This document shows, one piece after another, positions 41,743 through 42,644 of a stretch of 47,070 nt of DNA (position 1 is the stretch's first letter; every line of letters starts with the position of its first letter). Both the position numbers and the translations under genes were made by a program. Location: assembly GCA_021823825.1 (NCBI GenBank), contig JAKANJ010000001.1, positions 1 through 47,070 of the forward strand, read 5' to 3'. The DNA comes from a bacterium. GTDB taxonomy: Bacteria; Patescibacteriota; Minisyncoccia; Phycocordibacterales; UBA1550. Under the pieces are notes generated by a model. That model was not told the DNA's origin and did not search any database. It saw nothing but the letters and a program-made list of their open reading frames with translations.

Positions 41743-41796
41743 AGCGAGTTTGTGTGAGCGACGGCGAACGCAAAACTCGTGACCACAAGAATATCA

Positions 41797-41882
41797 CGAA
41801 AAACCTCCCCTGCGGGAGATTTTTCAGCACTTGTGCCAGGCGGAGCGATGTTTTGTTAGCAAACAAAACCGCGAGCCGGGGT
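41797..41882 (+). repeat. Copy 2 of the 86-nt direct repeat
   Basis: It matches 41657-41742 throughout on manual comparison. It is preceded by cacaag (41784-41789), which echoes the tRNA end cacaag (41650-41655). Confidence 0.85.
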
Positions 41883-42345
41883 CAGGAAGTGGTTACTTTG
41901 AGGTCTTGCAATATTTGAACGTGTCGGATCGCCATACATTCTGGGATTTTTAGTAGGGTATACCCGTGATCATGCTGCTATTTAGTGGAAGTGGTAAATT
42001 CTTGTGATTATAGTGGTTTCTCCCCCGTGTGTGGTTTTCTGTTATAACTTGGCGATATTGGTGTATCTACTGCTTTATAAGCTGGAATCTAAAATGAAAA
42101 ACGGTGTTTTAGCGATAAGTATATTTCTATAAATAAAAACGAATGAAACAAGGCGCCAACAGCTAAATATTAATTTTTGCTAGGTAAATAAAGGATATTT
42201 TCCGTGCTAGCACTTTTGCTAATTCCCCTGTCTGTCTGATTATAATAAATACACAAGCAGTTTGTATATAAATAAGCAATTTATAATCAAAGAACGCCTC
42301 TTCCAAAAAAATAAAAAAAATGTATAGTATATCAGTAGAAAGCTT

Positions 42346-42416
42346 GCGGGTATGGTTTAGTGGTAGAATGCGTCCTTGCCAAGGACGAGACGGGAGTTCG
42401 ATTCTCCCTACCCGCA
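42346..42416 (+). tRNA. tRNA-Gly (anticodon GCC), no encoded CCA
   Basis: Hand-folded cloverleaf. Acceptor GCGGGTA/TACCCGC, anticodon stem CGTCC/GGACG with loop TT-GCC-AA, T-arm GGGAG-TTCGATT-CTCCC, discriminator A. Confidence 0.92.
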
Positions 42417-42462
42417 CATTACAAAGATACCCCAGCCACCCGGCTGGGGTACCTTTGTAATG
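42417..42462 (+). repeat. 21-bp hairpin immediately 3' of tRNA-Gly
   Basis: cattacaaagataccccagcc accc ggctggggtacctttgtaatg pairs at 20 of 21 positions. No clear U-tract follows. Confidence 0.8.
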
Positions 42463-42470
42463 CTTGGGAT

Positions 42471-42486
42471 GTAGGGAGAATCGAAC
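42471..42486 (+). repeat. Inverted copy of the tRNA-Gly T-arm/acceptor 3' strand
   Basis: gtagggagaatcgaac is the exact reverse complement of tRNA-Gly 42396-42411 (gttcgattctccctac). Confidence 0.85.
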
Positions 42487-42644
42487 TGGCCGGAACGATG
42501 CCGAGCAAGGCCACGATAAATCTAGGGCACTGCGATTTTCTAAGGTCTCAGTCGAGACCAAGTAAATCGGGAGCATGCGAGGCCGTGAGGCGGGGCCGGC
42601 AGAAACTTATGAGCGACGGCGAGTAAGTTATCTGTGGCTTCGTT

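What the first reader, a model, noticed from the sequence alone, without database searches (positions are those of the whole stretch)
41745..42634. Conserved 14-nt loop TGAGCGACGGCGA(A/G) presented on stems of unrelated sequence at two tRNA loci
In the Arg(UCG) module the hairpin at 41745-41779 has the stem cgagtttgtg / cgcaaaactcg. In the Gly module the hairpin at 42600-42634 has the stem cagaaactta / taagttatctg.

Both are ~10-bp stems with a one-nucleotide bulge, and both carry an almost identical 14-nt loop: tgagcgacggcgaa versus tgagcgacggcgag. Both are preceded by a gcgag(g/c)ccg-type GC-rich segment.

A conserved loop on stems of different sequence is the signature of a selected RNA or single-stranded DNA hairpin. 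It could be a protein- or recombinase-recognition loop rather than neutral repeat decay.
Basis: seen in the sequence. Interest (0 to 1): 0.7.

Follow-up and report, generated by a model that had tools for sequence, protein, structure and literature searches.

The report
Structured element behind Patescibacteria tRNA genes
The two hairpins are the same arm of a previously uncatalogued family of about 110-nt folded elements that sit directly behind tRNA genes of every kind in Patescibacteria, each tailored to its own tRNA; their function is unknown.

Summary
TGAGCGACGGCGA occurs exactly twice in the window, each time capping a hairpin. The same cap sits on unrelated, compensating stems in many related genomes.

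The "14-nt loop" is mostly helix. It consists of two tandem G·A pairs (ordinary pairs in other members), a C-G pair and a GACG tetraloop.

The hairpin is one arm of a roughly 110-nt three-way-junction element. A covariance model finds 43 copies in 80 Paceibacteria loci and 88 in 80 metagenome loci. All lie on the tRNA-sense strand, and nearly all lie 30-130 nt behind a tRNA gene of almost any amino-acid identity.

Each copy starts with an antisense match to its own tRNA's T-loop and T-stem, often also the acceptor. Each ends with a sense copy of that tRNA's last 18-19 nt, beginning in the T-loop.

Copies are present or absent at orthologous tRNAs. They form tandem arrays and vary in number between strains of the window's own species. 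Rfam 15 and the searched literature show nothing similar.

My best reading (0.45) is a small non-autonomous insertion element that targets tRNA genes and restores the tRNA 3' end. The main rival (0.33) is a host tRNA-like or regulatory RNA. The mechanism is inferred, not shown.

The parts
41580..41652 (+). tRNA-Arg(UCG), the gene that element 1 is attached to
   Evidence: ARAGORN; Rfam tRNA, 62.7 bits
41657..41742 (+). First copy of an 86-nt perfect direct repeat. It contains a terminator-like hairpin (stem 41665-41678 plus a T tract), the antisense segment cttgtgcc (41690-41697, complementary to the tRNA end plus trailer ggcacaag at 41648-41655), and P2/hairpin A of the core.
   Evidence: the repeat finder family D1, 100% identity, spacing 140; terminator scan; sequence read
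41692..41797 (+). Element 1, the complete type A' three-way-junction core
   Evidence: Covariance model R1: 49.7 bits, E 3e-10, full-length match
41745..41779 (+). Hairpin 1 of the finding. It is arm P4/hairpin B of element 1, and its cap at 41755-41768 is UGAG-C-GACG-G-CGAA.
   Evidence: aligned to the model's P4 arm. The segment 41657-41796 that contains it is missing in same-species contigs L279 and L280.
41797..41882 (+). Second copy of the 86-nt repeat. It is a partial second unit (terminator, antisense, P2/hairpin A) that lacks arm P4.
   Evidence: D1; R1 partial hit at 41839-41877, 36.9 bits
42346..42417 (+). tRNA-Gly(GCC), the gene that element 2 is attached to
42405..42458 (+). Direct repeat copy 1: the last 13 nt of tRNA-Gly plus its terminator hairpin
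   Evidence: the repeat finder family D2; terminator scan, stem 42428-42451
42471..42487 (+). 17-nt perfect antisense copy of the tRNA-Gly T-loop, T-stem and start of the acceptor (pairs with 42395-42411)
   Evidence: the repeat finder I4, 17 of 17 complementary
42475..42657 (+). Element 2, a type A' core with a large insertion in hairpin A
   Evidence: R1: 34.1 bits, E 1.6e-5, with default filters. With filters off, only the 3' half 42577-42653 scores (15.2 bits).
42530..42573 (+). Module nested in hairpin A of element 2 (CUGCGAUUUUCU-aaGGUCUC-agtc-GAGACC-aagUAAAUCGGGAG). It is related to the cores behind tRNA-Arg(CCG).
   Evidence: GGTCTCNNNNGAGACC is found 3 times, against 0.03 expected; sequence comparison
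42600..42634 (+). Hairpin 2 of the finding. It is arm P4/hairpin B of element 2, and its cap at 42610-42623 is UGAG-C-GACG-G-CGAG.
42645..42698 (+). Direct repeat copy 2: the displaced or decoy tRNA-Gly 3' end plus terminator
   Evidence: the repeat finder family D2, 98% identity
43707..43779 (+). tRNA-Arg(CCG), followed by two tandem elements with the same architecture but a different core (type E)
43833..43940 (+). Type E unit 1: a 21-nt perfect antisense (43833-43853), the core (43854-43921) and a sense copy of the tRNA 3' end (43922-43940). It is preceded by terminator A (43783-43826).
   Evidence: Script, antisense 21 nt and direct repeat 19 nt. The fold has a 17-bp closing stem at -66.5 kcal/mol, z -8.1.
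43992..44099 (+). Type E unit 2: a degenerate antisense (43992-44011), a core identical to that of unit 1, and a degenerate tRNA 3' end copy (44080-44099). It is preceded by a diverged terminator B (stem 43952-43971).
   Evidence: Unit number varies between strains.

Best explanation
SHOWN. The two hairpins are the same arm (P4, or hairpin B) of one family of folded elements of about 105-185 nt. These elements lie directly behind tRNA genes in Patescibacteria (class Paceibacteria), on the tRNA-sense strand.

The anatomy, 5' to 3', is as follows:
- A linker, which is either a terminator hairpin or a GAGCGAAGCGAA-type mini-hairpin.
- Often an 8-nt antisense match to the acceptor 3' strand, followed by a 9-bp hairpin H1 with a 4-nt loop (CUGC is the commonest).
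- A 10-13-nt antisense match to the T-stem 3' strand, the T-loop and G53 of the adjacent tRNA.
- A three-way-junction core, made of P2 with hairpin A, and P3-P4 with hairpin B capped by GACG.
- A sense copy of the tRNA's last 18-19 nt. It starts at T-loop position 56/57 and mostly ends exactly at the tRNA 3' end.

The antisense and sense copies close the element as stem P1.

INFERRED (most likely). These are small non-autonomous insertion elements specific for tRNA genes. A unit of [tRNA 3' end +/- terminator, antisense, core] enters at the T-loop. It supplies a replacement 3' end, so the tRNA stays intact. The old 3' end is left downstream as the repeat. Repeated entry, or recombination at these repeats, builds and collapses tandem arrays.

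The antisense segment is the tRNA-matching part, serving either for target recognition or as a fold-back mimic of the target duplex. It may be kept matched to the tRNA by template-switch correction of the inverted repeat.

The conserved core, including the P4 cap, would be the part read by an unknown factor acting in trans, or it would make a tertiary contact. The folded molecule is either the co-transcript with the tRNA or the sense DNA strand. In this window the sense strand is inferred to be the lagging-strand template.
For: Family and structure:
- The 10-sequence alignment gives 34 pairs, 26 of them with compensatory changes.
- Across 31 distinct copies, 92.8% of cells are paired, against about 40% when the partners are slid. 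33 of 34 pairs change on both sides.
- Across 79 distinct metagenome copies, 95.1% of cells are paired and 31 of 34 pairs change on both sides.
- G·U outnumbers A·C by 35:17 and 63:21, which points to the sense strand.

tRNA linkage:
- There are 43 model hits in the window plus 80 related loci, all on the tRNA strand.
- 71 of 81 metagenome matches have a tRNA within 300 nt upstream on the same strand, covering about 18 amino-acid identities.

Repeat of the tRNA 3' end:
- 49 of 238 tRNAs in the related loci carry it.
- It starts 18-19 nt from the tRNA end. In 36 of 43 cases identity stops within 0-2 nt of the tRNA end.

Antisense segment:
- It matches the real tRNA at 11-12 of 12 positions. These include positions 53-55, which the downstream repeat lacks, and a T-loop variant (C55). 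It matches the tRNA better than the downstream repeat in 27 of 31 copies.
- Some antisense runs are perfect over 17-23 nt.

Mobility-type behaviour:
- The identical tRNA-Gly(GCC) has no element in L002 and L003, a different element in L001, and this one in the window.
- Within the window's own species there are 140-nt and 161-nt presence/absence variants.
- At tRNA-Arg(CCG), the unit next to the tRNA has a perfect antisense and repeat and its own, diverged terminator. The distal unit is decayed.
- Tandem or mixed arrays occur in L014, L174 and L164.
- Nearly identical cores lie behind Asp, Gly, Pro, Thr and Arg tRNAs, with unrelated linkers and H1 hairpins.

Strand and replication: dnaA (9957-11333), dnaN and their DnaA boxes lie about 30 kb to the left. 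This suggests the + strand here is the lagging-strand template.
Against: - No element-borne or consistently adjacent protein gene was found. No longer 'autonomous' version with the same ends exists in 80 loci; the one 1.3-kb case in L008 is different.
- The only nearby recombinase is housekeeping.
- No cross-tRNA pair of cores exceeds 92% identity, so there is no sign of recent jumps.
- The strain variants can all be explained as deletions between repeats, rather than as new insertions.
- How the three separate tRNA-specific segments are re-matched after a move to a new tRNA is inferred, not shown.
- The core is as strongly conserved as a housekeeping RNA. Most copies lie inside the tRNA transcription unit, before the terminator. 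Both points fit a host function equally well.
- None of the 78 IMG/VR contigs matching a core-derived sequence pattern scored convincingly with the model. This counts against a phage-borne source.
Confidence: 0.45

Rival explanations
1. The element is a host-functional non-coding RNA made together with the tRNA. It could be a tRNA-like scaffold: an acceptor-like stem, H1 in place of the D and anticodon arms, a T-stem, and the T-loop replaced by a payload domain. RNase P, 3' processing enzymes and the CCA-adding enzyme would then trim and stabilise it. Alternatively it could be a three-part switch (tRNA 3' half / antisense / decoy copy). In that case the folded core decides whether the antisense traps the real tRNA 3' half or the decoy, and so gates tRNA maturation.
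For: - The core sequence is very strongly conserved across lineages whose proteins are only 55-80% identical.
- Structure favours the sense strand.
- The usual order is tRNA, element, 3'-end copy, terminator, which makes one transcription unit.
- The downstream copy usually ends exactly at the mature tRNA end.
- In about half of the copies an acceptor antisense lies at a fixed 25-29 nt upstream of the T-antisense, and H1 is nearly always 9 bp.
- The antisense tracks the real tRNA, yet in some copies it co-varies with the downstream copy instead (9 of 30).
- Several unrelated core types occupy the same scaffold position.
Against: - From reading the linker sequences listed, about one third of copies, including all three loci in the window, lie behind a canonical terminator with no room for a promoter.
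- The element is missing at orthologous tRNAs in close relatives, and it is variable within a species.
- The acceptor part of the downstream copy, or of the antisense, is decayed or absent in many copies.
- Tandem and mixed arrays are odd for a regulator.
Confidence: 0.33
2. The element is a tiny intron-like or self-cleaving ribozyme. The antisense would act as an internal guide that pairs across the T-loop junction, with positions 53-56 on one side and 57-65 on the other. The core would catalyse cleavage and ligation at the two identical T-loop sites, so that units can be cut out and could reverse-insert into tRNA sequences.
For: - The guide order (3'-exon-pairing part, then 5'-exon-pairing part) and the repeat of the '3' exon' start at the element's 5' end mirror group I P1/P10 logic (sequence reading).
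- The junction is sharply conserved, and tandem unit-length arrays occur.
Against: - No Rfam ribozyme or intron family matches, even at E <= 10.
- A 95-nt three-way junction with 1-3-nt joining strands resembles no known catalytic core.
- Five unrelated core types share the same boundaries. This suggests the scaffold, not the core chemistry, sets the boundaries.
- The tRNA is functional without any splicing.
Confidence: 0.1
3. These are inert scars: leftover attachment-site fragments of excised prophages or islands, or products of replication template-switching at terminator hairpins, with no selection on the hairpin.
For: - Repeats of the tRNA 3' end that start in the T-loop are the classic footprint of integrase-mediated integration (established knowledge).
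- The palindrome formed by tRNA end, terminator and antisense in the window loci looks like a fold-back product.
Against: - Strong covariation and sequence conservation hold across more than 100 copies.
- The same core lies behind about 18 tRNA identities.
- None of 78 pattern-matched IMG/VR contigs scores convincingly with the model.
Confidence: 0.04

Closest known systems
Genomic islands and prophages integrated by tyrosine integrases into the T-loop of tRNA or tmRNA genes (sublocation classes of Williams, 2002; from my own knowledge)
   Same: A direct repeat of the tRNA 3' end begins in the T-loop. The tRNA is regenerated by element-borne sequence. Tandem accretion occurs at one tRNA, and sites are filled or empty between relatives.
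   Different: These elements are 0.1-0.2 kb rather than several kb and carry no integrase or any gene. They carry an antisense copy of the target and an RNA-like covarying core. They are found behind most tRNA identities rather than one per element lineage.
Folded single-strand recombination substrates: integron attC sites and the CTX phage attP(+) hairpin used by XerCD (from my own knowledge)
   Same: Structure is conserved rather than sequence. Folding is strand-specific. A hairpin whose stem reconstitutes a duplex resembling the target is consistent with the antisense/sense pair. Tandem arrays occur.
   Different: attC sites are simple imperfect hairpins with RYYYAAC/GTTRRRY ends, and CTX targets dif. 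Here the target is a tRNA gene, the fold is a three-way junction, and no dedicated recombinase was identified.
Non-autonomous miniature elements (MITEs; palindrome-associated PATEs of IS200/IS605)
   Same: They are small, non-coding, structured and repeated many times per genome.
   Different: The ends are not fixed inverted repeats recognised by a transposase. Instead they change with each tRNA. There is no known partner transposase, and no Rfam IS605/omega-RNA match.
tRNA-like domains in other RNAs (tmRNA, bacterial YrlA/Y RNA, viral tRNA-like structures)
   Same: An acceptor-like and T-stem-like helix is formed by the 5' and 3' ends, with a foreign domain between them.
   Different: The stems copy the neighbouring tRNA rather than a fixed identity. 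The T-loop itself is replaced. ARAGORN and Rfam do not call them.
Three-part RNA switches (terminator / antiterminator / anti-antiterminator in riboswitches and T-boxes)
   Same: The sense / antisense / sense layout allows mutually exclusive pairings. A conserved junction domain is closed by the switching helix P1.
   Different: The element lies 3' of a tRNA rather than 5' of an ORF. No ligand or expression platform is evident, and many copies lie behind terminators.
Group I intron internal guide sequence
   Same: A single guide pairs with sequence on both sides of the junction, in the same 5'-3' order.
   Different: There is no group I core (no Rfam hit). The element is about half the size of the smallest known group I introns, and the tRNA needs no splicing.

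Membership tests
Any Rfam 15 RNA family | Score at or above the family's gathering threshold | tested here: not met
   Only tRNA hits appear in the window and in 7 element-rich loci. At E <= 10 there are no credible hits on the window elements or on the best type A copy in L054.
tRNA-gene integrative element (tyrosine integrase type) | Direct repeat of the tRNA 3' end starting in the T-loop or anticodon loop | tested here: met
   The repeat starts 18-19 nt from the tRNA end in most copies.
tRNA-gene integrative element (tyrosine integrase type) | Integrase gene carried inside the element, next to one att site | tested here: not met
   The elements are 105-185 nt with no ORF. The nearby recombinase is syntenic housekeeping in 51 loci.
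tRNA-gene integrative element (tyrosine integrase type) | Filled and empty sites among related genomes | tested here: met
   tRNA-Gly(GCC) is empty in L002 and L003, while L001 and the window carry different elements. Strain-level variants also exist.
IS200/IS605 derivatives (PATE; TnpB/IscB guide RNA) | Similar subterminal hairpins at both ends, a short fixed target motif, no target repeat, and a match to the IS605-orfB/HEARO RNA models | tested here: not met
   H1 and hairpin B are unrelated, a long tRNA repeat is present, and there is no Rfam hit.
IS110-type bridge/seek RNA | RNA encoded beside a DEDD recombinase gene, with two internal loops whose strands match target and donor halves | tested here: not met
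   There is no adjacent ORF. The two tRNA-matching segments cover the same target positions and are complementary to each other, not adjacent half-sites. Whether the recombinase is present elsewhere in the genome was not testable.
Group I / group II intron | Conserved catalytic core (P3-P9 with a G site, or domains I-VI) | tested here: not met
   No Intron_gpI or group II hit at E <= 10. The core is about 95 nt.
Integron attC | Single imperfect hairpin bounded by RYYYAAC ... GTTRRRY | tested here: not met
   The fold is a three-way junction. The ends are tRNA-derived (..AATCGAAC / GATTC..), read directly from the sequence.
tRNA / tmRNA / tRNA-like gene | Cloverleaf, or tRNA-like domain with an intact T-arm, detectable by ARAGORN or Rfam | tested here: not met
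   Only the four genuine tRNAs are called. The T-loop position is occupied by the core.
Structured RNA (generic criterion) | Base pairs supported by compensatory changes beyond controls | tested here: met
   33 of 34 and 31 of 34 pairs change on both sides. 0 of 500 shuffles reach the observed values. Slid controls show 31-55% of cells paired, against 93-95% observed. Caveat: the alignments were fitted to the model.
Kink-turn / tandem-GA protein-binding motif | Tandem sheared G·A pairs next to a 3-nt bulge, conserved as G·A | tested here: inconclusive
   CGAG/CGAG and GAG/CGA tandem G·A steps recur in P2, hairpin A and hairpin B. In the P4 cap they are exchanged for Watson-Crick pairs in many members, and no 3-nt bulge is present.

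The most novel reading that the evidence does not exclude
The elements are a protein-gene-free, tRNA-programmed mobile RNA/DNA element. Its antisense segment would serve as a guide across the T-loop junction. Its roughly 95-nt three-way-junction core would either be a new small ribozyme (cleaving and ligating at T-loop sites, i.e. a 'T-loop mini-intron') or the handle for an unrecognised RNA- or structure-guided recombinase of Patescibacteria. This would make it a new, naturally reprogrammable system for insertion into tRNA genes.
Probability: 0.12. Interest if true: 0.95.

Novelty: categorically new. Interest (0 to 1): 0.8.

Why it matters
Patescibacteria have about 1-Mb streamlined genomes. 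Even so, in some of the fetched loci every nearby tRNA gene drags a conserved folded element of about 110 nt that is individually matched to that tRNA. In L005 this holds for five of five neighbouring tRNAs.

Whichever reading is right, it points to unknown biology.
- It may be a very small mobile element that recognises tRNA genes by complementarity and repairs the gene it enters.
- It may be a general layer of tRNA-linked RNA biogenesis or control in a major, poorly understood bacterial phylum.

The family is abundant: more than 120 loci matched one strict pattern before the scan hit its limit. It is easy to model and absent from Rfam, so it can be tested directly. It also matters for genome annotation, where spurious ORFs are called across these elements, and for programmable-insertion tool discovery.

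Tried and rejected
- **Known RNA families.** I searched Rfam at gathering and at permissive thresholds on the window, on 7 element-rich loci and on the best copy. Only tRNAs were found.
- **Minus-strand gene or tRNA-like gene.** I rejected this. The apparent T-arm on the minus strand is just the reverse complement of the tRNA 3' end and cannot form a T-stem. G·U exceeds A·C by 2-3 fold on the sense strand. The minus-strand ORFs 42163-42576 and 44142-44600 have no Pfam hit.
- **Primer-binding site or copying from mature tRNA by reverse transcription.** I rejected this. The antisense includes TGG (the complement of CCA) only where the gene itself encodes CCA (L015, L195), not elsewhere (L199, L217, L238). 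It also runs past position 58. It therefore copies the gene, not the mature tRNA.
- **Phage origin.** 78 IMG/VR contigs matched a loose pattern, but only 3 scored with the model, weakly, and those were GC-rich.
- **Element-specific integrase.** The nearby recombinase is syntenic in 51 loci.
- **Longer autonomous versions.** Only one distant repeat was found, in L008 (1.3 kb). It has a different cargo and no core.
- **Recent cross-tRNA jumps.** The best core identity between different tRNAs is 92%, and that figure is inflated by the search pattern.
- **Type E core elsewhere.** It is found only in same-species contigs.
- **Literature.** Seven full-text searches and one paper check found no description.
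- **GC skew as a strand or replication guide.** It is too weak to use. I used the dnaA/dnaN position instead.
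Full report
**1. The observation**

- The two hairpins are at the stated coordinates, with the stated stems and one-base bulges.
- TGAGCGACGGCGA matches exactly only at 41755-41767 and 42610-42622. With up to 2 mismatches there are 6 matches against 0.44 expected, and no shuffle reached 6.
- Both hairpins lie behind tRNA genes: Arg-UCG at 41580-41652 and Gly-GCC at 42346-42417. Two further tRNAs follow, Pro at 43577-43652 and Arg-CCG at 43707-43779.

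**2. Local anatomy**

Behind three of the four tRNAs the same layout appears:

- tRNA
- terminator-like hairpin
- an antisense copy of the tRNA 3' part
- a GC-rich segment
- a sense copy of the tRNA 3' end

The details for each tRNA are:

- **Gly.**
  - The antisense is 17 of 17 (42471-42487 against 42395-42411).
  - The sense copy is part of a 54-nt repeat (42405-42458 and 42645-42698).
- **Arg-CCG.**
  - The antisense is 21 nt (43833-43853), and the sense copy is 19 nt (43922-43940).
  - A second unit follows at 43992-44099. It is decayed at its ends but has an identical core.
- **Arg-UCG.**
  - The antisense cttgtgcc matches the tRNA end plus trailer.
  - An 86-nt perfect repeat (41657-41742 and 41797-41882) creates a complete unit followed by a partial one.

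The Gly element also contains a module (42530-42573) related to the Arg-CCG cores.

**3. Relatives**

The window comes from a Patescibacteria (Paceibacteria/Nomurabacteria-like) genome. The neighbouring CCA-adding enzyme retrieved 80 loci from such genomes.

- In these loci, 49 of 238 tRNAs (Arg, Gly, Pro) carry a downstream exact repeat of at least 11 nt of their 3' end that reaches the tRNA end. Most also carry the antisense.
- At least five unrelated core types occupy the same position between antisense and repeat.
- The loop motif recurs on different complementary stems in about 10 of these loci.

**4. A structured family**

- Ten copies of the core type that contains the finding's hairpin align well. 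They give a three-way junction of 34 pairs, 26 of them with compensatory changes.
- A covariance model finds 43 copies in the window plus the 80 loci, all on the tRNA strand. These include 41692-41797 (49.7 bits), the partial copy 41839-41877, and 42475-42657 (34.1 bits).
- I scanned IMG/VR with a core-derived sequence pattern. None of the 78 matching contigs scored convincingly with the model.
The model finds 88 copies in the 80 loci that were fetched.
- Pair statistics are 92.8% and 95.1% of cells paired, against 31-55% in slid controls. 33 of 34 and 31 of 34 pairs change on both sides, and 0 of 500 shuffles are as high.
- These alignments are fitted to the model, which inflates pairing somewhat. 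The independent MAFFT/RNAalifold result agrees with them.
- G·U exceeds A·C by 35:17 and 63:21, so the fold belongs to the tRNA-sense strand.

**5. What the "loop" is**

In the family alignment, the cap of arm P4 reads NN-G-Y-[GACG]-R-C-N'N'.

- The first two positions are G·A/A·G in the window copies and in 13 metagenome copies.
- They are U-A/U-A in 19 copies, and G-C/C-G or other pairs elsewhere.
- The conserved feature is therefore a GACG (or GGCG) tetraloop on a Y-R closing pair. The tandem G·A step is one interchangeable variant.
- CGAG/CGAG tandem G·A steps also recur lower in the same arm, in hairpin A and in P2.

**6. Link to tRNAs**

- 71 of 81 metagenome matches have a tRNA within 300 nt upstream on the same strand. 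The identities are Gly, Asp, Gln, Ile, Ser, Met, Pro, Val, Leu, Cys, Arg, Ala, His, Lys, Thr, Glu and Tyr, and also Phe.
- The downstream repeat starts 18-19 nt from the tRNA end, at T-loop C56/G57. In 36 of 43 cases identity stops within 0-2 nt of the tRNA end.
- The 12 nt before the core are complementary to the real tRNA at 11-12 positions. These include G53-U55, which the downstream repeat lacks, and they follow a C55 variant of the T-loop.
- Where the repeat has drifted from the tRNA, the antisense matches the tRNA better in 19 cases, the repeat better in 9, and both equally in 2.
- In about half of the copies an 8-nt acceptor antisense (6-8 of 8 matches) lies a fixed 25-29 nt upstream of the T-antisense.
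- It is separated from the T-antisense by hairpin H1. H1 is 9 bp in 48 of 83 cases, and its loop is CUGC in 30 of 83.
- The antisense includes the complement of CCA only when the gene encodes CCA.
- Most copies lie between the tRNA and its terminator. From reading the linkers, about one third, including the window's copies, lie behind a terminator.

**7. Dynamics**

- The identical tRNA-Gly(GCC) is empty in L002 and L003, carries a different element in L001, and carries this one in the window.
- Eight contigs of the window's own species were found through the YraN protein. They show two length variants:
  - The 140 nt at 41657-41796, which contain hairpin 1, are absent in L279 and L280.
  - The Arg-CCG locus has two units in the window, L280 and L284. 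L279 has only the distal unit, and L283 has a single hybrid unit.
- The two units there have 100% identical cores but strongly diverged terminators. The unit next to the tRNA has the perfect antisense and repeat.
- Cores behind different tRNAs can be about 90% identical while the linkers and H1 hairpins are unrelated.
- No pair is near-identical.
- All of the strain variants could be deletions between repeats.

**8. Interpretation**

*Shown.* This is an uncatalogued, abundant, covarying, sense-strand structured element family attached to tRNA genes. Each copy is matched to its tRNA by an antisense segment and a 3'-end copy. The finding's hairpin is its P4 arm.

*Inferred.* My best reading (0.45) is a small non-autonomous insertion element.

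- It enters at the T-loop and supplies a replacement tRNA 3' end, with or without a terminator.
- It accumulates and collapses in tandem.
- Its antisense serves as the target-matching or fold-back part.
- Template-switch correction of the inverted repeat is a plausible way to keep the antisense matched, because the tRNA copy cannot change.

The strand and replication context does not decide between RNA and DNA folding.

- dnaA, dnaN and their DnaA boxes lie about 30 kb to the left. That position suggests the folded sense strand is the lagging-strand template here.
- That strand is also the non-template strand of a highly transcribed gene. RNA-level and single-strand-DNA-level folding both remain possible.

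The main rival (0.33) is a host RNA. It would be either a tRNA-like scaffold carrying a payload domain or a sense/antisense/sense switch on tRNA maturation.

- It is favoured by the extreme core conservation and by the placement inside the tRNA transcription unit.
- It is disfavoured by the terminators in front of many copies and by the patchy, variable distribution.

A ribozyme or mini-intron reading (0.10) fits the guide geometry but has no catalytic-core support. Inert scars (0.04) are contradicted by the covariation.

**9. Comparison with known systems**

The repeat geometry matches integrase-type integration into tRNA T-loops. However, there is no integrase, the size is about 100 nt, and an antisense and a folded core are present. 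The element fails the defining tests for the following (see the membership table):

- every Rfam family
- IS200/IS605 derivatives
- IS110 bridge RNAs
- group I and group II introns
- integron attC sites
- tRNA and tmRNA

I found no description in Rfam 15 or in seven literature searches plus one paper check. I therefore rate it as lying outside known kinds. The caveat is that its mechanism is unresolved and the literature library is incomplete.

**10. Limits**

- No expression data were available.
- Only loci around one syntenic block, plus loci selected by pattern, were sampled. This biases the results towards conserved cores.
- E-values from the short calibration are rough.
- The metagenome scan was truncated.
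- Whole-genome counts and protein co-occurrence could not be computed.

Noticed in passing
window 43826-44099; L279, L280, L283, L284: Two tandem 'type E' elements lie behind tRNA-Arg(CCG). Their cores are 100% identical, but their terminators are strongly diverged. Strains of the same species carry two units, the distal unit only, or one hybrid unit.
   Followed up: yes
window 41657-41796 versus L279/L280: A 140-nt segment containing the first hairpin of the finding is present in the window, L281 and L282 but absent in L279 and L280. Those two contigs keep only a truncated 5' half of the element. They also differ by one base in the tRNA-Arg acceptor stem (A versus G).
   Followed up: yes
L008 4160-5460 (minus strand): A 1.3-kb insertion lies behind tRNA-Pro. 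It is bounded by a repeat of about 120 nt that again starts in the T-loop (TCGATTCTCGG...). It carries a 334-aa ORF and duplicates the start of a downstream sigma-factor-like gene. This is a different kind of cargo at the same entry point.
   Followed up: partly
Linkers after many tRNAs (e.g. L179, L201, L049) and hairpin caps in L004, L015: The motif GAGCGAAGCGAA / GAACGAAGTGAG recurs. It contains GCGAAGC, which I recall as an unusually stable DNA mini-hairpin in single-strand phage origins. It is a possible hint of DNA-level folding.
   Followed up: no
window 42849-42878: Three DnaA-box-like sites (one perfect TTATCCACA) lie in the AT-rich spacer between the tRNA-Gly element and the YraN gene. 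The same ctgtggataactatg... block is conserved in L002 and L003. The main DnaA-box clusters flank dnaA (9771-9942 and 11401-11420).
   Followed up: partly
window 43653-43706: The spacer after tRNA-Pro, which has no full element, contains tggtatcggggggta. This is a degenerate antisense of the tRNA-Pro acceptor/CCA end and may be a relic of a lost element.
   Followed up: no
L164 about 1300-1560; L005 6009-9749: Mixed and dense arrays occur. In L164 a type A core is followed by a type-C-like 3' motif (ACTGGTCCTGTAAG) before the tRNA-end copy. In L005 all five neighbouring tRNAs carry a type A copy, several of them sharing an identical hairpin A while P2 covaries.
   Followed up: partly
window 42163-42576 (-) and 44142-44600 (-): ORFs of 137 and 152 aa overlap the tRNA-Gly element and lie next to the Arg-CCG elements. 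Public annotations call them as genes, but they have no Pfam hit. The first overlaps a tRNA and is probably spurious.
   Followed up: partly
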